This document shows positions 358-64,000 of a stretch of 64,000 nucleotides of DNA, piece after piece. The position numbers were made by a program, and so were the translations under genes. This stretch comes from Shigella phage ESh25. Location of the stretch: sequence record ON528735. One strand, 5' to 3'. Every line of letters starts with the position of its first letter. Positions within the stretch are counted from its first letter, which is position 1. The notes under the pieces were generated by a model that was not told where the DNA came from, did not search any database, and saw nothing but the letters and a program-made list of their open reading frames with translations.

Positions 358-387
358 ATAATACCACAACTAACCGAGGAAGTAAAC
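358..387 (-). promoter_or_regulatory. early promoter (-35 GTTTAC, -10 TATTAT on minus strand)
   Basis: Motif pair read on minus strand with ~17 nt spacer, followed by SD and ATG at 330. Confidence 0.5.
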
Positions 388-17033: not shown

Positions 17034-17110
17034 ATCCGTATCAGTAGTTGATATTGATATAGTACCATGGAAGAACAGTCTTGTAAACAGTTTTGTGAAA
17101 AATTTTTAGG
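17034..17110 (-). repeat. promoter-leader cassette copy A (early promoter + SD)
   Basis: Near-identical to 45385..45460 and 60146..60230: GTTTACA-17nt-TACTAT...tatcaactactgatac...ttGGAGAAnnAAATG. Confidence 0.6.
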
Positions 17111-43411: not shown

Positions 43412-43939
43412 TTATGCGAGTACCGTCTTTAACCGTTCTTCAAACTTCCGAAGAGTATTTTGGCGTTCAGCTCTTTGCTTTTTGTAAGTTTCAATACGCT
43501 CTGAAATGAGAGTATATCGTTCATTTACTGATTCTTTCATAAAATCAGGAATTTCACGAGAAGCTTTAATCTCGTCAAATTTATCAATAACAACTTGCTC
43601 TTCAGCAATTAAGTTATCATACATCAAAATATCTTTCTTGATGAACTCAATATCTTCTTGAGTTACACGAGATAATTTAGATGCTTTATCCTTTTTGTAC
43701 TGTTCGTTAGTATCACGAGACCAGTGTAATGTACGATTTTTATTCGTATTCTTGTAAATTTCTACAATACCAATCTCATCGATAATAACGATCCAATTCC
43801 AACGGGATTTGTAAATTTGTCCTCCATCAACAGTGATTTCACCTCCGATTGAGATGTCATTAAAGAACTTGCTTTGTGCTTCTGATTTAAATTTACCATC
43901 GTTGTAATTTACCAGGTTGAAAATATCTTTAGCATTCAT
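43412..43939 (-). CDS. hypothetical protein
   Basis: Track ORF trimmed to MNAKDIF...; the first 20 track codons lie inside a promoter cassette. Confidence 0.55.
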   Translation of the reverse strand: MNAKDIFNLVNYNDGKFKSEAQSKFFNDISIGGEITVDGGQIYKSRWNWIVIIDEIGIVEIYKNTNKNRTLHWSRDTNEQYKKDKASKLSRVTQEDIEFIKKDILMYDNLIAEEQVVIDKFDEIKASREIPDFMKESVNERYTLISERIETYKKQRAERQNTLRKFEERLKTVLA

Positions 43940-44010
43940 TTTCTGTTCCTCCGTAGTTGATAGTTGTATAGTACCACAGAGGAACGGTCTTGTAAACAAC
44001 TAAAAGAAAC
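43940..44010 (-). repeat. promoter-leader cassette (second type)
   Basis: Shares ...tatcaactacGGAGGA... leader with 63597..63660 and the cassette in 63925..64000. Confidence 0.5.
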
Positions 44011-44403: not shown

Positions 44404-45372
44404 TTATTTCAGAAGAGTAACCTCAGCGATTTCTTCCCAACCGTTTTTGTCGGTCATAATAAAGTCAGCAAGATAAAGAGCAGTACGCAGTGAAACATTG
44501 CGTAAACGATTAACATTGACTTTCATCCATGATAATGCTTTATAAGTTTCTTCATCAGAAAGACCGCGCTTTTGCATCATGTCAGTTGAAAGAATAACAT
44601 CTTCAACCCTGACCATAATTTCTTCATTAGCGTGAACACCCAAATCCAAATAAACTGAGCGGGACACTAATGCTTGTAAATGTGGAGCAAGTTTAGTACC
44701 ACGGTCTAATTCGCGGTCAATGTCAACGTTTGTGATAAAAACAATCGTTCCTTTAAATTCAAACTCACGCTCAATGCCTTTTTCTTCTAAATAAGAAGAT
44801 GCAGTGCTCCAGCAGACTTTACGGGTCTCTCCAGTGTCCAGAGCAGCTTTTAGAAGATTAAGAATGTCCATATCAGAGAAAACATCCACATCATCAATCA
44901 AAAGGACAGAATTCGCTTCACGATTATTCCAAAGCTGCTCATAAAGACCAATACCAGAGATTTTACCGTTAATGCTTTTATATTCAATGTATCCATTATC
45001 ATTTGCTTTATTTAAAGCTTTATCTAAAGAATACGTTTTACCAATACCTGCTGCACCAGAGATAATTAATGAACGAATGTTTCCGTTAATAATACCATTC
45101 GTCATCATTCCCATAACATTAAATCTTTTATTAATGCGGGTTTTCATATCTTCATATGATTCTTTAACTTCTTCAACTTTTACACCATCATATGAAATGT
45201 CTGATTTGTAAACCCAAACACCGCGACGTTTACCGTCAATTTCAACAAAAACTTTACCATCTCCTTGTGCATCTACCGGAGCATTATCAGGGAACCACTC
45301 ACCTAAGAGTTCAAAAGTTCCAGAGATTTCTTTACCGAAGTAGATACCCTTATTAATAGTTACAGTTTTCAT
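44404..45372 (-). CDS. AAA+/P-loop ATPase
   Basis: Walker A GAAGIGKT and Walker B LLIDDVD; track TTG start trimmed to ATG. Confidence 0.65.
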   Translation of the reverse strand: MKTVTINKGIYFGKEISGTFELLGEWFPDNAPVDAQGDGKVFVEIDGKRRGVWVYKSDISYDGVKVEEVKESYEDMKTRINKRFNVMGMMTNGIINGNIRSLIISGAAGIGKTYSLDKALNKANDNGYIEYKSINGKISGIGLYEQLWNNREANSVLLIDDVDVFSDMDILNLLKAALDTGETRKVCWSTASSYLEEKGIEREFEFKGTIVFITNVDIDRELDRGTKLAPHLQALVSRSVYLDLGVHANEEIMVRVEDVILSTDMMQKRGLSDEETYKALSWMKVNVNRLRNVSLRTALYLADFIMTDKNGWEEIAEVTLLK

Positions 45373-45384
45373 TTTATTCTCCAA

Positions 45385-45460
45385 ATCCGTATCAGTTGAT
45401 AGTTGTATAGTACTATAAAGCTTTATGCTTGTAAACCGTTTTGTGAAAAATTTTTGAAAT
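45385..45460 (-). repeat. promoter-leader cassette copy B
   Basis: See 17034..17110. Confidence 0.6.
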
Positions 45461-51989: not shown

Positions 51990-52327
51990 CTAGTACTCAA
52001 TCCTCGATTATAAGAATCTACTAAACGGTCAACCATTGAATGACAAGCGGCTTTATCTTTCTCCTCCGCAACTGAACATTCTAAAGTATTCCACTTTTTA
52101 GCATATCGTTTTAACAATGTATCATTTTTATATCTGCTTGATTTATCTCTTTCTCCGTCTTTATATGCATATATTAATTTCTGCGCAAATTCAGCTTGGC
52201 ATGCTTTATTTTTCCCACAATAATCCGCGGCAGTACGGTTTACATACTCTCTAATTTCAGTATATGATGTATCTGCTAACACAGAAAATGAAATTAATCC
52301 TATACATAAAACCAAAATTTTAGTCAT
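51986..52327 (-). CDS. secreted protein (vs-region)
   Basis: 113 aa with signal peptide. Confidence 0.5.
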   Translation of the reverse strand: MTKILVLCIGLISFSVLADTSYTEIREYVNRTAADYCGKNKACQAEFAQKLIYAYKDGERDKSSRYKNDTLLKRYAKKWNTLECSVAEEKDKAACHSMVDRLVDSYNRGLSTR

Positions 52328-53361: not shown

Positions 53362-53391
53362 ATTATACCACAGTCAAGAGGAAAAGTAAAC
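53362..53391 (-). promoter_or_regulatory. early promoter (-35 GTTTAC, -10 TATAAT) for regB
   Basis: Consensus hexamers, then SD GAGGAG and regB ATG. Confidence 0.55.
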
Positions 53392-55975: not shown

Positions 55976-56005
55976 ATACTATCACAATTCTAGGAGAAAG
56001 TAAAC
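55976..56005 (-). promoter_or_regulatory. early promoter for denV
   Basis: GTTTAC -35 and TAGTAT -10, then SD GGAGGG. Confidence 0.5.
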
Positions 56006-59813: not shown

Positions 59814-59869
59814 AATGTTTTCCTCATTTGTATAGGCTCATAATATCTCAATCATGAGCCTATGTAAAC

Positions 59870-61238: not shown

Positions 61239-61314
61239 TGGTCGAGGCAGTAGGAATCGAACCTACGACCTAGGACTTAGAAGGTCCTTGCTCTTCCTTC
61301 TGAGCTATGCCTCG
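61239..61314 (-). tRNA. tRNA-Arg (anticodon UCU)
   Basis: Manual fold: 7 bp acceptor, D and T arms, loop CTTCTAA, encoded CCA. Confidence 0.75.
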
Positions 61315-61318
61315 GATT

Positions 61319-61393
61319 TGGCGGACGTGATAGGATTCGAACCTATAACCAATCGCTTAACAGGCGATCGCTCTGCCATTGAGCTACACATCC
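61319..61393 (-). tRNA. tRNA-Asn (anticodon GUU)
   Basis: Manual fold: loop CTGTTAA, GGTTCGAAT T-loop, encoded CCA. Confidence 0.7.
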
Positions 61394-61397
61394 AAAT

Positions 61398-61484
61398 TGG
61401 TGGGGAGTGGTGGAGTCGAACCACCCGAGTCGCAATGACAATGGATTTACAGTCCACACCGCTACCTCTACGGGATAACTCCCC
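61398..61484 (-). tRNA. type II tRNA-like, possibly tRNA-Tyr (GUA)
   Basis: 87 nt; acceptor GGGGAGT/ACTCCCC, T-arm GGTGG-TTCGACT-CCACC, long variable arm, candidate loop CTGTAAA; D-arm irregular. Confidence 0.45.
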
Positions 61485-61493
61485 AAATTAATT

Positions 61494-61568
61494 TGGTGGC
61501 CCTGGGTGGAATTGAACCACCATCTGGCGATTATGAGTCGCTTGCTTGAACCTTCCAGCTACAGGGCC
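61494..61568 (-). tRNA. tRNA-Ile/Met type (anticodon CAU)
   Basis: Manual fold: loop CTCATAA, encoded CCA. Confidence 0.75.
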
Positions 61569-61569
61569 T

Positions 61570-61645
61570 TGGTGCTGATTGACGGAATCGAACCGCCGAC
61601 CTTCTCATTACAAGTGAGTTGCTCTACCTACTGAGCTAAATCAGC
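61570..61645 (-). tRNA. tRNA-Thr (anticodon UGU)
   Basis: Manual fold: loop CTTGTAA, encoded CCA. Confidence 0.75.
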
Positions 61646-61650
61646 AAAAC

Positions 61651-61740
61651 TGGCGGAGGCGATAGGATTTGAACCTATGAGTCGCCGGAGCGACTGCCGG
61701 TTTTCAAGACCGGTGCATTAAACCACTCTGCCACGCCTCC
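61651..61740 (-). tRNA. tRNA-Ser (anticodon UGA), type II
   Basis: Manual fold: long variable arm, loop CTTGAAA, encoded CCA. Confidence 0.75.
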
Positions 61741-61743
61741 AAA

Positions 61744-61751
61744 TATTTATA
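61744..61751 (-). promoter_or_regulatory. possible late promoter TATAAATA at segB 3' end
   Basis: Exact 8-mer on minus strand overlapping last segB codons, a few nt 5' of tRNA-Ser; could be chance in AT-rich DNA. Confidence 0.3.
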
Positions 61752-62355
61752 TATTGTTAATTTGATTTAGAATTCTTTTTGCTTGAGTATGACTTACGCC
61801 AATATGCTTAGCATATTTAGATAATTCACCCCGCTTAGAAAAATCATATAATTTAGAAATTTCTATTCTTCTTTTTCTTTCATCCGCAGAAACTTTTGCT
61901 TCGTTTGCTTTTGCTATTTTACGTTTAGCTTCTTGAGAATGAGTTTTACCAGCAAAGCCATTTTTCATTAATCCATTTGAAGACCATCCTTTTAATTTTC
62001 CGTTAGAATGTGCCTTTTTAACACCCAATGAAATTAATTCGCGTTGCTGATCTGTCATAGGATAATTATTTATATGATCCCATCCACCTTCACCTCCAAG
62101 TTTTAAATTATACACATCTGGTCTATTTAAAAACTCTTCTGTGACAATATTTTTCTCGGCTTCAAGCATAGATTCTTTATCATCAAAATACTCTAATATT
62201 TCTTTAGAAAAATTTTCTATGCCATATTTATCTTGGGCTCTTTTTAATAATTTACCAGAACCCATATATCCATCATCTAAATTTTCGGTAGAATGCACAC
62301 CAATATAAATTTTATTATTAATTTTATTTGTTATTTTATAAAGATAAAAATGCAT
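61747..62355 (-). CDS. segB: GIY-YIG homing endonuclease SegB
   Basis: FYLYKITNK...IYIGV motif; embedded in the tRNA cluster as in T4; track ORF starts at ATG 62397 (216 aa), I prefer ATG 62355 next to the motif. Confidence 0.8.
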   Translation of the reverse strand: MHFYLYKITNKINNKIYIGVHSTENLDDGYMGSGKLLKRAQDKYGIENFSKEILEYFDDKESMLEAEKNIVTEEFLNRPDVYNLKLGGEGGWDHINNYPMTDQQRELISLGVKKAHSNGKLKGWSSNGLMKNGFAGKTHSQEAKRKIAKANEAKVSADERKRRIEISKLYDFSKRGELSKYAKHIGVSHTQAKRILNQINNI

Positions 62356-62401
62356 ATCAGTCCCTAATAAAGAACTGAGCGTCTCACGACGAGTCATAAA
62401 T

Positions 62402-62475
<74 letters not shown>

Positions 62476-62480
62476 AAATT

Positions 62481-62567
62481 TGGTGCGAGAAGTGGGACTC
62501 GAACCCACAAGGAAATCATTCCGCAGCATTTTAAGTGCTGTGCCTTTACCAATTTGACCATTCTCGC
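62481..62567 (-). tRNA. tRNA-Leu (anticodon UAA), type II
   Basis: Manual fold: long variable arm, loop CTTAAAA, encoded CCA. Confidence 0.75.
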
Positions 62568-62568
62568 G

Positions 62569-62641
62569 CTGGGAATAAAGGACTCGAACCTTTGCATCTA
62601 GCAGTCAAAGTGCTATGCCTTACCAACTTGGCTAATTCCCA
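62569..62641 (-). tRNA. tRNA-Gln (anticodon UUG), no encoded CCA
   Basis: Manual fold: loop CTTTGAC; abuts tRNA-Leu (dimeric precursor arrangement). Confidence 0.7.
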
Positions 62642-62738
62642 ATTATTAACAAAGGCTCTCAAACAAGAACCCTTGATGATAGAGGGTATTAATCAGTGCG
62701 GTATGAGTTAATAATAACAAATAGTTCTTAAAGCATAT

Positions 62739-63028: not shown

Positions 63029-63418
63029 TCAGCCTTCATCAACAATAGTATGAGTGTGGGCATTTACAATTTGCCACCAATCAAAGCGATTAGAACCATA
63101 CATTGGTTTGTTCTCATTTTCTTTGATAATGTCACGGAGTTCATCTTCGGTAGCGGCTTTCGCGATTAAATCAGCATATCCACCGCGAGGATAATAATTA
63201 TCACCTGCAAAAAGTAAAAAGTTTGGTTTAATGTTATTGAACTCTTCAAGAGTAATAACTGTTCCACCAGGTTGAACAATATCTACATAACTATATCCTA
63301 ATTTTTGAGCAGCATCTACTGCTTCAAGCAAGGTATCATGAGCCCATCCAATTTGGCAATCTGGCTTTTCAGATGGATTAGCCTGATAATCTGCATATAC
63401 TTTATACATTTTACTCAC
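63029..63418 (-). CDS. hypothetical protein
   Basis: 129 aa ORF. Confidence 0.5.
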   Translation of the reverse strand: MSKMYKVYADYQANPSEKPDCQIGWAHDTLLEAVDAAQKLGYSYVDIVQPGGTVITLEEFNNIKPNFLLFAGDNYYPRGGYADLIAKAATEDELRDIIKENENKPMYGSNRFDWWQIVNAHTHTIVDEG

Positions 63419-63596
63419 CTTTAGAAATTTTATCCATAACGATAGCGATTAAACCAATTAAAAATGCTACTACAAGCGAAAACACATTTTCTGCTGTAGT
63501 TAATAATCCGCATATAAATCCAACAAACATTGAAAAACTAAAAGCAGAAGCAGAAATTGCAATAGCAACATTTCGAATTAATTCACAGCGTTTCAT
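63411..63596 (-). CDS. small membrane protein
   Basis: Track ORF trimmed to MKRCELIRNV...; two hydrophobic helices. Confidence 0.45.
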   Translation of the reverse strand: MKRCELIRNVAIAISASAFSFSMFVGFICGLLTTAENVFSLVVAFLIGLIAIVMDKISKGE

Positions 63597-63660
63597 TTTA
63601 TTCTCCTCAGTAGTTGATAGGGTAATAGTATCACTACTAAAACCCCGTGTAAACAACTTT
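63597..63660 (-). repeat. promoter-leader cassette (second type)
   Basis: GTTTACA-17nt-TACTAT...tatcaactactGAGGAGAAtaaaATG; partner of the cassette in 63925..64000 and related to 43940..44010. Confidence 0.5.
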
Positions 63661-63666
63661 GTGAAA

Positions 63667-63924
63667 TTATTTTAAATCTTCTAATCGTTTCTTCATCTTA
63701 GAACCATTTTTAGCGATTTCTCCTGCGTCAGAGCATAATGCTAAAAGTGCTTTAACTTTAGTTTGGTCTCCTTTAAAAGACGAAGGATCGACTGCAGCAG
63801 CAAGTTCTTTAATACGAGAGAAAAGACGCTCAGCTTCAGCTAAAGCCATTCCAAGCTTTACTTCCATACCATGAGAAGATTCAGTGATAATAGTTTCTGT
63901 AGCAAACTCTTTATAAGTTTTCAT
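63667..63924 (-). CDS. candidate internal protein with capsid-targeting-like N-terminus (IPI-locus position)
   Basis: 85 aa; N-terminus MKTYKEFATE resembles MKTYQEFIAE; sits just past the tRNA cluster where T4 has ipI. Confidence 0.5.
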   Translation of the reverse strand: MKTYKEFATETIITESSHGMEVKLGMALAEAERLFSRIKELAAAVDPSSFKGDQTKVKALLALCSDAGEIAKNGSKMKKRLEDLK

Positions 63925-64000
63925 TTTTATTTTCCTAATTAATTTTGATGAGGTAATAGTATCACTACCTCATCAGTGTGTAAACAACTTTGTGAAATTA
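63925..64000 (-). promoter_or_regulatory. early promoter plus leader for the IP-like gene
   Basis: GTTTACA...TACTAT hexamers and SD before ATG 63924. Confidence 0.5.

What the first reader, a model, noticed from the sequence alone, without database searches (positions are those of the whole stretch)
43940..44010. Second promoter-leader cassette family with a translated-leader artefact
Segments at 43940..44010 and 63597..63660, plus a related one inside 63925..64000, share GTTTACA...TACTAT...tatcaactac(t)GAGGAG leaders. In the ORF track the leader is translated as MFTRPFLCGTIQLSTTEEQK or MFTRGFSSDTITLSTTEENK; the real starts are the ATGs after the SD. Two copies sit back to back before the IP-like gene and a small membrane-protein gene, which suggests a recent duplication.
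Basis: seen in the sequence. Interest (0 to 1): 0.4.

Follow-up and report, generated by a model that had tools for sequence, protein, structure and literature searches.

The report
T4-type early promoter cassettes
The three segments are ordinary, already described early promoters of a T4-like phage, each followed by a short leader and ribosome-binding site, and the "MFTR..." protein extensions are an ORF-calling artefact.

Summary
The window is a Tequatrovirus (T4/T2/RB51-like) genome with its early genes on the minus strand. All three segments carry GTTTACA-N17-(TG)TACTAT, the published T4 early promoter and T-even "PeSL" consensus. That consensus has 16-18 minus-strand hits in the window against 0.4-1.3 expected by chance. 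They sit upstream of nrdC.8, tRNA.4 and an Ip5-type internal head protein gene, and a related phage record annotates early promoters at all three sites.

The three are not a separate family. The nrdC.8 copy is closer to three other copies than to the two at the IP locus.

The MFTR... extensions start at a TTG that overlaps the -35 element, upstream of the inferred transcription start. That TTG is lost or blocked by stop codons in relatives, and family profiles begin at the downstream ATG.

The shared GGAGAATAAAA matches the published RegB/S1 cleavage consensus.

The two IP-locus cassettes are direct repeats flanking the IP gene. A relative has an extra IP gene whose junctions lie inside the cassette, which fits known cassette-mediated shuffling rather than a recent duplication.

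Side observation: 11 of 29 such promoters carry a hairpin spanning the -10 element. In the nrdC.8 cassette this hairpin covers the ribosome-binding site.

Verdict: real, ordinary, already known.

The parts
43937..44002 (-). Cassette A, between nrdC.9 and nrdC.8. It runs from the nrdC.9 stop TAG (44002-44000) through the -35 GTTTACA (43997-43991), TGG+TACTAT (43976-43968), the inferred +1 near A43961, TATCAACTAC (43962-43953) and SD GGAGGA (43952-43947) to the ATG (43939-43937).
   Evidence: The fPS-65 record annotates 'predicted early promoter' at the orthologous site. The T4 sequence is nearly identical.
43945..43985 (-). Predicted hairpin in read-through RNA of cassette A. The 5' arm (43985-43973) lies in the promoter spacer and -10 edge. 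The 3' arm (43957-43945) covers CUACGGAGGAAC, which includes the SD.
   Evidence: -19.4 kcal/mol, z -4.17, 0 of 200 shuffles as stable. RNA from the inferred own start folds at 0 kcal/mol. Spacer shuffle gives z -5.15, and 0 of 17 swapped spacers do as well.
43997..43999 (-). TTG that the ORF lister used as the start of the 195-aa form. It overlaps the first base of the -35 element and is not a real start.
43412..43939 (-). nrdC.8-like gene, 175 aa, starting at ATG.
   Evidence: phrog_2274 aligns 1-175/175.
63594..63669 (-). Cassette B, between Ip5-like and tRNA.4-like. It runs from the Ip5 stop TAA (63669-63667) through TTTCACAAAGTT, the -35 GTTTACA (63654-63648), TGA+TACTAT (63633-63625), the inferred +1 near A63618 and TATCAACTAC (63619-63610) to GGAGAATAAAA (63606-63596) and the ATG (63596-63594).
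   Evidence: fPS-65 annotates an early promoter at the orthologous site.
63619..63646 (-). Weak hairpin around the -10 element of cassette B (GGGGU...ACCCU plus an inner stem).
   Evidence: -12.9 kcal/mol, z -1.43, not significant on its own. Relatives hold stronger versions such as AUAGGGU/ACCCUAU and GAUAGGGUA/UACCCUAUC.
63411..63596 (-). tRNA.4-like small hydrophobic protein gene, 61 aa, starting at ATG.
   Evidence: RB51 tRNA.4 is 186 nt; phrog_1692 aligns 1-61/61.
63922..64000 (-). Cassette C, upstream of the Ip5-like gene and cut by the window end. It holds TAATTTCACAAAGTT, the -35 GTTTACA (63985-63979), TGA+TACTAT (63964-63956), the inferred +1 near A63949, a weak SD AGGAAA (63936-63931) and the ATG (63924-63922).
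   Evidence: The RB51 and SholemSchwarzbard orthologues follow gene 57B. fPS-65 annotates an early promoter there.
63946..63975 (-). Perfect 10-bp inverted repeat TGATGAGGTA / TACCTCATCA enclosing the -10 element of cassette C. It folds as a 13-pair hairpin in read-through RNA.
   Evidence: -17.4 kcal/mol, z -4.63, 0 of 200 shuffles as stable. It is conserved in RB51, L013 and L139.
63667..63924 (-). Ip5-type internal head protein gene, 85 aa. Its N-terminus MKTYKEFATE resembles the N-termini of other T-even internal proteins (extra IP gene MKTYQEFIAE).
   Evidence: phrog_3499 'internal head protein' aligns 1-85/85.

Best explanation
Each segment is a T4-type early (sigma-70) promoter cassette, the T-even counterpart of the published 'PeSL' regulatory cassettes.

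Anatomy, 5' to 3' on the minus strand:
- the stop codon of the upstream gene
- a short A/T-rich stretch (TTTCACAAAGTT in B and C)
- the -35 region GTTTACA
- a 17-bp spacer ending in TGn
- the -10 hexamer TACTAT
- a start about 7 nt further on (inferred), giving an unstructured leader of about 22-25 nt that begins AUCAAC...
- a strong SD, then the ATG

How it works. Host RNA polymerase fires these promoters immediately after infection (established T4 biology). The leader is then translated from the ATG.

RegB. [quoted passage not shown] In A the T4 orthologue's site is reported as moderately cleaved. C has GGAA, a poor RegB site.

The ORF extension. The TTG that opens the MFTR... ORF overlaps the -35 element. 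It is therefore absent from the cassette's own transcript, and it is not conserved in relatives.

Why the cassettes resemble one another. Part is shared function (promoter and RegB/SD consensus). Part is exchange between copies: the IP-locus cassettes B and C are direct repeats that flank the IP gene and mark the junctions at which IP genes are gained or lost in relatives.

Inferred extra layer. The spacer of many of these promoters is complementary to sequence just after the -10 element. Transcripts reading through from upstream would fold into a hairpin that the cassette's own transcript cannot form. In A this hairpin buries the SD. That would limit nrdC.8 translation to promoter-proximal transcripts, or couple it to nrdC.9 translation.
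For: Identity of the genome. The window is 98-99% identical to T2, REP2, Sf22 and RB51.

Promoter class.
- The motif counts are far above chance and fall on the coding strand only.
- The tool scan finds TTTACA-17-TACTAT with a TG before the -10 element at all three sites.
- The published consensus is GTTTAC at -36 to -31, with a GT-rich stretch before -12 (PMC1524935).
- The PST/T4 PeSL promoter is TTTACW-N17-TAYWAT, with SD and start codon at the 3' end of the element (PMC4122927).
- fPS-65 annotates 'predicted early promoter' at the orthologous sites of all three cassettes.

Start codons.

RegB.
- The consensus is GGAGAAUAAAA. The nrdC.8 site is moderately cleaved and the motB.2 GGAU site is cleaved in T4 infection (PMC1702504).
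- The exact 11-mer occurs at 63606-63596 and 45382-45372.

Shuffling.
- SholemSchwarzbard and fPS-65 carry an extra IP gene between Ip5 and tRNA.4.
- The insertion is bounded by direct repeats of GTAGTGATACTATTACCCTATCAA, which is the -10 element plus the first transcribed bases.
- Relatives also hold chimeric cassettes and a 19-nt slippage duplication.
- One nrdC.8 cassette (L008) carries the IP-locus type of -10 region.
- The literature describes PeSL-like elements at the T-even IP loci (PMC2839356).

Hairpins.
- Fold z scores are -4.17 (A) and -4.63 (C). RNAs from the inferred own start fold at 0 kcal/mol.
- Six of 18 window cassettes have a spacer-shuffle z of -4.9 or lower.
- Of 29 cassettes, 11 have z below -3, against 9 of 150 random windows (Fisher p = 2e-5).
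- T4 itself has 7 of 22 below -3.
- Orthologous nrdC.8 cassettes in three lineages (identity bands led by T4/T2-type, F2-type and JS98 records) use three different arm sequences.
- Sense-strand folds are more stable than antisense folds (p = 0.011).
Against: - No transcription start, RegB cut or N-terminus was measured for this genome. The +1 positions are inferred from the -10 spacing.
- The hairpin of cassette B is not significant on its own (z -1.43).
- In B and C the SD lies outside the stem, so SD sequestration can hold only for A and similar copies.
- None of the hairpins is followed by a U tract (0 terminator-like sites), so the terminator role shown for RB49 PeSLs may not transfer.
- Random windows of this genome already reach z below -3 in 6% of cases.
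- A's upstream region is T-rich rather than A-rich, unlike the typical UP-like element.
Confidence: 0.9

Rival explanations
1. The upstream TTG codons are real starts, and NrdC.8 and tRNA.4 carry a 20-residue MFTR... N-terminal extension.
For: In the window and in T4, 20 codons upstream of the nrdC.8 ATG are open and begin with TTG.
Against: - The TTG overlaps the -35 element and lies upstream of the inferred start of the cassette's own transcript.
- No SD precedes it.
- It is TGG in L004, L005, L007 and L008.
- In-frame stops lie 1 or 8 codons upstream of the ATG in L006/L009 and L010/L011.
- RB51 and SholemSchwarzbard have no upstream start for tRNA.4.
- A strong SD sits 7-8 nt before the ATG.
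- PHROG profiles begin at the ATG.
- T4 and RB51 annotate the short forms.
Confidence: 0.02
2. The promoter-spanning hairpins act mainly as attenuators or terminators, or as 3'-end stabilisers, of transcripts coming from upstream. This is the role proposed and partly shown for RB49/phi1 PeSLs. They insulate each small gene rather than gate translation.
For: - In RB49/phi1 the stem-loops most often lie between -35 and -10 or overlap the -10 element. One of them reduced lacZ expression as much as a strong terminator (PMC2839356).
- In B, C and several other copies (59869; T4 146143, 133331, 129918) the stem does not touch the SD.
Against: - No U tract follows the stems, and there are 0 terminator-like sites.
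- T-even stems are described as weaker and AT-rich.
- In A, 387, 53391, 56005 and T4 166807 and 130310 the 3' arm is the SD itself.
- Two of three lineages at the nrdC.8 site rebuilt an anti-SD arm from different sequence.
Confidence: 0.3
3. The inverted repeats are DNA-level features (recombination hot spots or cruciform or hairpin substrates), or simply scars of repeated cassette recombination, with no role in RNA.
For: - Indel junctions, chimeric cassettes and a slippage duplication all lie inside the cassettes.
- The PeSL papers propose homologous or site-specific recombination at these elements.
Against: - Sense-strand folds are more stable than antisense folds because of G-U pairs (19 of 20 selected cassettes; unbiased set p = 0.011).
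- Arm sequences differ between cassettes while pairing is kept, at four or more different registers.
- Recombinant cassettes are the ones with broken pairing (L140, L143).
Confidence: 0.12
4. The resemblance among the three segments is pure convergence on a strong promoter and SD consensus, with no shared descent or exchange.
For: The shared blocks (GTTTACA, TGnTACTAT, GGAG + A-rich) coincide with known functional consensus elements.
Against: - B and C share 23 of 23 nt upstream, including the stop codon. In relatives the match also covers the last codons GATTTAAAATAA of two unrelated genes, 57B and Ip5.
- They share a further 17 of 17 nt, GTAGTGATACTATTACC.
- Mosaic cassettes are seen in relatives.
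- TATCAACTAC is not, to my knowledge, part of any described functional consensus, yet it recurs at a fixed register.
Confidence: 0.08

Closest known systems
Bacteriophage T4 early promoters (Pe; sigma-70 dependent 'UP/-35/TGn/-10' promoters; PMC2988021, PMC1524935)
   Same: - GTTTAC at the -35 position, a 17-bp spacer, a GT-rich TGn stretch and a TAnnAT -10 element.
- Placed on the early-gene strand directly upstream of small early genes.
- About 16-18 copies in 64 kb.
- The nrdC.8 copy is nearly identical to the T4 sequence.
   Different: Nothing of substance. A lacks the A-rich upstream stretch. Activity was not measured for this genome.
PeSL (promoter-early stem-loop) regulatory cassettes of T4-like phages (Arbiol 2010 PMC2839356; Comeau 2014 PMC4122927), and the PeSL-like elements of the T-even internal-protein loci (Repoila 1994, as cited in PMC2839356)
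   Same: - A composite of stop codon, A/T-rich stretch, early promoter, stem-loop, SD and ATG.
- Repeated in intergenic spaces of variable regions.
- They match TTTACW-N17-TAYWAT.
- They flank the IP gene as direct repeats.
- The gain of an IP gene in a relative has its junctions between the -10 element and the SD, where RB49 mini-circle crossovers were mapped.
   Different: - For PST/T4 the stem-loops were drawn just upstream of the promoter. Here the strongest stems span the -10 element, which is the common RB49/phi1 arrangement.
- The stems are AT-rich and lack U tracts.
- Terminator activity and mini-circles were not tested.
RegB/S1 endoribonuclease target sites in T4 early Shine-Dalgarno sequences (Durand 2006, PMC1702504)
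   Same: - B (63606-63596) and the nrdC.10 leader (45382-45372) are exactly GGAGAAUAAAA, in unstructured early leaders.
- The T4 nrdC.8 site is reported as moderately cleaved.
   Different: - A has GGAGGAACAGA, which fits the consensus at only 8 of 11 positions.
- C has GGAA, which is reported as very poorly cut.
Promoter-inside-hairpin translational control of T4 genes e, soc, 49 and I-TevI (reviewed in PMC3014915)
   Same: In A, long transcripts are predicted to bury the SD in a 13-15 bp helix. The promoter's own start lies inside the structure, so the short transcript is open.
   Different: - The known cases use late promoters to delay expression. Here the internal promoter is an early one, which would restrict expression to the first minutes.
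- There are no experimental data.
- It does not apply to B and C.

Membership tests
T4 early promoter | -35 region GTTTAC(A/T) at about -36 to -31 | tested here: met
   GTTTACA is present at 43997, 63654 and 63985. The consensus is taken from PMC1524935.
T4 early promoter | 17 (+/-1) bp spacer and a -10 hexamer TAnnAT (TAYWAT), preceded by a GT-rich TGn stretch | tested here: met
   All three sites read TTTACA-17-TACTAT with a TG before the -10 element.
T4 early promoter | A-rich UP-like sequence around -40 to -44 | tested here: inconclusive
   B and C have CACAAAGTT directly upstream. A has TTTCTTTTAGTT, which is T-rich. There is no quantitative model to score this.
T4 early promoter | On the early-gene strand, directly upstream of an early gene's SD and ATG | tested here: met
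   Of 19 motif hits, 18 are on the minus strand. Every minus-strand copy has an SD-ATG 25-65 nt after the -10 element, but two of them (31742, 37407) may lie inside coding sequence; this was not checked.
T4 early promoter | Transcription initiates there in the first minutes of infection | not testable with these tools
   The only indirect support is that the T4 nrdC.8 leader is detected and cut by RegB in vivo (PMC1702504).
PeSL / T-even PeSL-like cassette | Early promoter combined with a stable stem-loop in the same short intergenic element | tested here: met
   A has z -4.17 and C has z -4.63. B is weak at z -1.43. The class-wide enrichment has p = 2e-5.
PeSL / T-even PeSL-like cassette | SD and start codon of the downstream gene at the 3' end, and the stop codon of the upstream gene at the 5' end | tested here: met
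PeSL / T-even PeSL-like cassette | Copies lie at the boundaries of insertions, deletions or replacements between close relatives | tested here: met
   The extra IP gene in SholemSchwarzbard and fPS-65 is bounded by cassette repeats. Chimeric cassettes are seen. This was not shown for A, whose flanking genes nrdC.9 and nrdC.8 are the same in T4, T2, RB32 and RB51.
PeSL / T-even PeSL-like cassette | The stem-loop attenuates or terminates upstream transcription, and mini-circles form between tandem copies | not testable with these tools
   No U tract follows the stems. An experiment is needed.
RegB/S1 target site | Single-stranded 11-mer GGAGRAYARAA (T4 optimum GGAGAAUAAAA) in an early intergenic leader | tested here: met
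   B matches exactly at 63606-63596, and its leader is unstructured. For A, GGAGGAACAGA is a partial match and the T4 orthologue is 'moderately cleaved'. C has GGAA and does not meet the feature.
Promoter-inside-hairpin translational gating (e, soc, 49, I-TevI type) | The SD and/or AUG are paired in the long transcript, and the internal promoter's transcript lacks the 5' arm | tested here: inconclusive
   A meets this in silico. B and C do not, because their SD lies outside the stem. The transcription start is inferred, and there are no translation data.

The most novel reading that the evidence does not exclude
A large minority (about 30-40%) of T4-type early promoters carry, in their own spacer, the 5' arm of a hairpin whose 3' arm lies after the -10 element and is often the SD. 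The RNA of the same gene would then be open when made from its own early promoter and closed when made by read-through. At the nrdC.8 site this pairing has been rebuilt from unrelated sequence in different lineages of T4-like phages (T4/T2 type and JS98 type). That would make transcript-origin gating, or enforced translational coupling, a general and selected property of early cassettes. It would be the early-promoter mirror image of the late-promoter cases e, soc, 49 and I-TevI, and would not be merely a terminator or a recombination scar.
Probability: 0.3. Interest if true: 0.4.

Novelty: already known. Interest (0 to 1): 0.15.

Why it matters
For annotation, the finding shows that mechanical ORF callers over-extend T4-like early genes into their promoters. 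The same thing happens at nrdC.10 (MENK...) and tRNA.3 (MSK...), so starts should be set at the SD-ATG.

Biologically, it re-finds three known things: T4 early promoters, RegB-sensitive leaders, and the repeated regulatory cassettes that shuffle internal-protein genes. Internal proteins are injected anti-defence proteins, so that locus is relevant to host range.

The only part that might add to the literature is the measure of how often a hairpin spans the promoter core, together with the rebuilt anti-SD arm at nrdC.8.

Tried and rejected
2. Repoila 1994 (PMC395341) and the T4 genome review (PMC150520) are not held. The IP-locus history is therefore cited only through PMC2839356 and PMC4122927.
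3. A literature search for a genome-wide T4 transcription-start map found nothing usable.
4. A fixed-register covariation count on the 19 unique IP-type cassettes was abandoned. The 5' arm pairs with TACC(CT/TC)ATCAA at four or more different offsets, so one dot-bracket string cannot describe them. Per-cassette fold z scores, spacer shuffles and spacer swaps were used instead.
5. A first sense-versus-antisense comparison used cassettes chosen for strong sense folds and was therefore biased. It was repeated on all 29 motif hits.
6. Rfam has no family at these sites. The only hits in the window are 9 tRNAs.
7. Pfam has nothing for the three proteins.
8. One control script was lost and was rerun at a smaller size.
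9. A common protein operator was considered as the reason for the inverted repeats. It was rejected because each cassette has different arm sequences.

Full report
**What the window is.** The stretches around both sites are 98-99% identical to T2, REP2, Sf22, RB51 and other Tequatrovirus genomes. The genes here run on the minus strand.
- Site 1 lies between nrdC.9 and nrdC.8 (T4 and T2 names).
- Sites 2 and 3 lie upstream of tRNA.4 (a 61-aa hydrophobic protein) and of an Ip5-type internal head protein. In relatives, gene 57B lies just beyond the window end.
- PHROG families confirm the three proteins. Their profiles align from position 1 with the ATG-start forms: 1-175/175, 1-85/85 and 1-61/61.

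**Observation.**
- Cassettes A and B read GTTTACA, 17 bp, TACTAT, then TATCAACTAC, then GGAGGA (A) or GAGGAG (B), then ATG.
- Cassette C shares only the promoter half. It then continues TACCTCATCAAAATTAATTAGGAAA...ATG.
- The ORF list does produce MFTRPFLCGTIQLSTTEEQK and MFTRGFSSDTITLSTTEENK from a TTG.
- The motif is far from chance. GTTTAC-N16-20-TANNAT gives 19 hits, 18 on the minus strand, against 1.3 expected. The published PST/T4 promoter string TTTACW-N17-TAYWAT gives 16 hits, all on the minus strand, against 0.42 expected.
- All 18 minus-strand copies have an SD and ATG 25-65 nt after the -10 element, though two (31742, 37407) may lie inside coding sequence.

**The grouping needs correcting.** Over 65 ungapped positions, A matches B at 43 and C at only 31. 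A matches the copies at 17088, 60206 and 45436 at 47, 46 and 41, and 17088/60206 share 58. The three segments are therefore a sample of one large class. A sub-class, TTTCACAAA..GTTTACA..GGTACTATACAACTATCAACTACTGA, has at least six members.

**What it is.** These are T4 early promoters.
- The literature gives GTTTAC at -36 to -31, a GT-rich stretch before -12, and conserved A at -11 and T at -7 (PMC1524935).
- It describes the class as 'UP/-35/TGn/-10' promoters with extra regions of consensus (PMC2988021).
- The simple scan finds TTTACA-17-TACTAT with a TG before the -10 element at all three sites.
- The T4 sequence upstream of nrdC.8 is almost identical.
- The annotated record of Yersinia phage fPS-65 marks 'predicted early promoter' at the orthologous position of all three cassettes.
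- As composites of stop codon, A/T-rich stretch, promoter, stem-loop, SD and ATG, they also fit the PeSL cassettes of T4-like phages. The PeSL papers state that PeSL-like elements based on T4 early promoters are associated with the two variable internal-protein loci of the T-even phages (PMC2839356, PMC4122927).

**The translated leader is an artefact.**
- The TTG overlaps the first base of the -35 element, about 38 nt upstream of the inferred start, so the cassette's own RNA lacks it.
- In four relatives whose NrdC.8 is 99% identical, the codon is TGG.
- In the two more distant lineages, in-frame stops lie 1 or 8 codons before the ATG.
- For tRNA.4, RB51 and SholemSchwarzbard have no upstream start at all.
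- T4 and RB51 annotate the short forms.
- The same over-extension occurs at nrdC.10 (TTG inside the SD, MENK-MKTV...) and at tRNA.3 (GTG, MSK-MYKV...).

**Why the leaders look alike.** There are two reasons.
- *Function.* The RegB/S1 endoribonuclease site of T4 early leaders has the consensus GGAGRAYARAA, with GGAGAAUAAAA as the T4 optimum. In T4 infection the nrdC.8 site is moderately cleaved and the GGAU of motB.2 is cleaved (PMC1702504). Cassette B and the nrdC.10 leader carry the exact 11-mer. A is a partial match. C has GGAA, a poor substrate.
- *Exchange between copies.* B and C share 23 of 23 nt upstream including the stop codon. In relatives the match extends into the last codons GATTTAAAATAA of the unrelated genes 57B and Ip5. 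They share a further 17 of 17 nt across the -10 element.
  - SholemSchwarzbard and fPS-65 carry an extra IP gene (MKTYQEFIAE...) between Ip5 and tRNA.4. It is bounded by direct repeats of GTAGTGATACTATTACCCTATCAA.
  - Among 19 distinct cassettes with this core, there are chimeras that join the 5' half of one type to the leader of another. There is also a 19-nt slippage duplication.
  - One nrdC.8 cassette (L008) has acquired the IP-type -10 region.
  - This is the cassette-mediated modular shuffling already described for these phages. The two-cassette arrangement is present in RB51, and the region matches many other phages at 96-99% identity. It is therefore not a recent duplication in this genome.

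**Side observation: hairpins across the promoter core.** Read-through RNA from -35 to the ATG folds strongly in A (-19.4 kcal/mol, z -4.17) and in C (-17.4 kcal/mol, z -4.63; a perfect 10-bp inverted repeat TGATGAGGTA/TACCTCATCA around the -10 element). It folds weakly in B (z -1.43). RNAs beginning at the inferred start are unstructured at 0 kcal/mol.
- *Spacer tests.* Shuffling or swapping only the spacer destroys the fold in 6 of 18 window cassettes (z -4.9 to -5.9).
- *Frequency.* T4 itself has 7 of 22 sites with z below -3. Over an unselected set of 29 sites, 11 have z below -3, against 9 of 150 random windows (p = 2e-5).
- *Strand.* Sense folds beat antisense folds (p = 0.011), which points to RNA rather than a symmetric DNA site.
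- *SD coverage.* In A, 387 (motB.2), 53391, 56005 and T4 166807 and 130310, the 3' arm is the SD.
- *Orthologous nrdC.8 cassettes*:

| Lineage (top records) | Arm sequences | Position | z |
|---|---|---|---|
| T4/T2 type, 94-99% identity | (C)UGUUCCUCUGUGG / CUACGGAGGAACA(G) | covers the SD | -4.2 to -6.7 |
| JS98 type, about 73% identity | CUCCAGUAG / CUACUGGAG | covers the SD | -4.6 and -2.4 |
| F2 type, about 84% identity | AGGUCUAU / AUAGACCU | around the -10 element only | -2.0 |

- *Relation to known cases.* Stem-loops between -35 and -10, or overlapping the -10 element, are already described for RB49/phi1 PeSLs and were proposed as attenuators. SD-burying helices with an internal promoter are known for T4 e, soc, 49 and I-TevI (PMC3014915).
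- *Status.* My reading for A is that nrdC.8 is translated from its own early transcript but not freely from read-through RNA, or only when coupled to nrdC.9, whose stop lies 14 nt before the 5' arm. This is inference. No U tract follows any stem.

**Verdict.** The feature is an already known kind: T4 early promoter or T-even PeSL-like cassette with a RegB-type SD. Interest is low. The hairpin statistics are the only part that might be worth a specialist's follow-up.

Noticed in passing
window 44404-45384 (-) and 63029-63418 (-): The same start-codon artefact occurs elsewhere. The nrdC.10-like ORF is listed from a TTG inside its SD (TTGGAGAATAAAATG, giving MENK-MKTV...). The tRNA.3-like ORF is listed from a GTG (MSK-MYKV...), whereas RB51 tRNA.3 is 381 nt, 9 nt shorter than the window ORF.
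   Followed up: partly
window 45407-45436 (-): The early promoter upstream of nrdC.10 has a perfect 12-nt palindrome ATAAAGCTTTAT inside its spacer, that is, a stem-loop between -35 and -10. Its leader carries the exact RegB consensus GGAGAATAAAA (45382-45372).
   Followed up: partly
window 59840-59869 (-) and downstream to about 59830: Another early promoter has a perfect 10-bp inverted repeat, ATAGGCTCAT / ATGAGCCTAT, enclosing its -10 element (fold -18.4 kcal/mol, spacer-shuffle z -5.9).
   Followed up: partly
window 358-387, 53362-53391, 55976-56005 (-): Three further early promoters (the first is the motB.2 orthologue) have spacers complementary to their own SD. The stems are 17-21 pairs, at -19 to -24 kcal/mol.
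   Followed up: partly
window 61242-62641 (-) and 61747-62397 (-): A cluster of nine tRNA genes is interrupted by a 216-aa ORF with a GIY-YIG-like N-terminus (YLYKITNKINNKIYIGV...). RB51 annotates a homing endonuclease at the same place. Several listed ORFs at 62394-62711 merely overlap tRNA genes.
   Followed up: no
L143 (IMGVR_UViG_2706796299_000001) and L140 (IMGVR_UViG_3300045988_118042): These IP-locus cassettes look like recombination products. The 5' arm ATAGGGTA is joined to the Ip5-type leader TACCTCATCAA, and the pairing is broken. In L143 there is also a 19-nt tandem duplication, GATACTATTACCTCATCAA.
   Followed up: partly
L008 (IMGVR_UViG_2974787500_000001), upstream of nrdC.8: This nrdC.8 cassette carries TATTATTACCCTATCAA in place of TACTATACAACTATCAA. 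Its -10 element and first transcribed bases are of the IP-locus type, which suggests conversion between distant cassettes. The anti-SD stem is unchanged.
   Followed up: partly
window 52238-52268 (+): This is the only plus-strand match to GTTTAC-N-TANNAT. It has an atypical 19-nt spacer and is probably chance.
   Followed up: no
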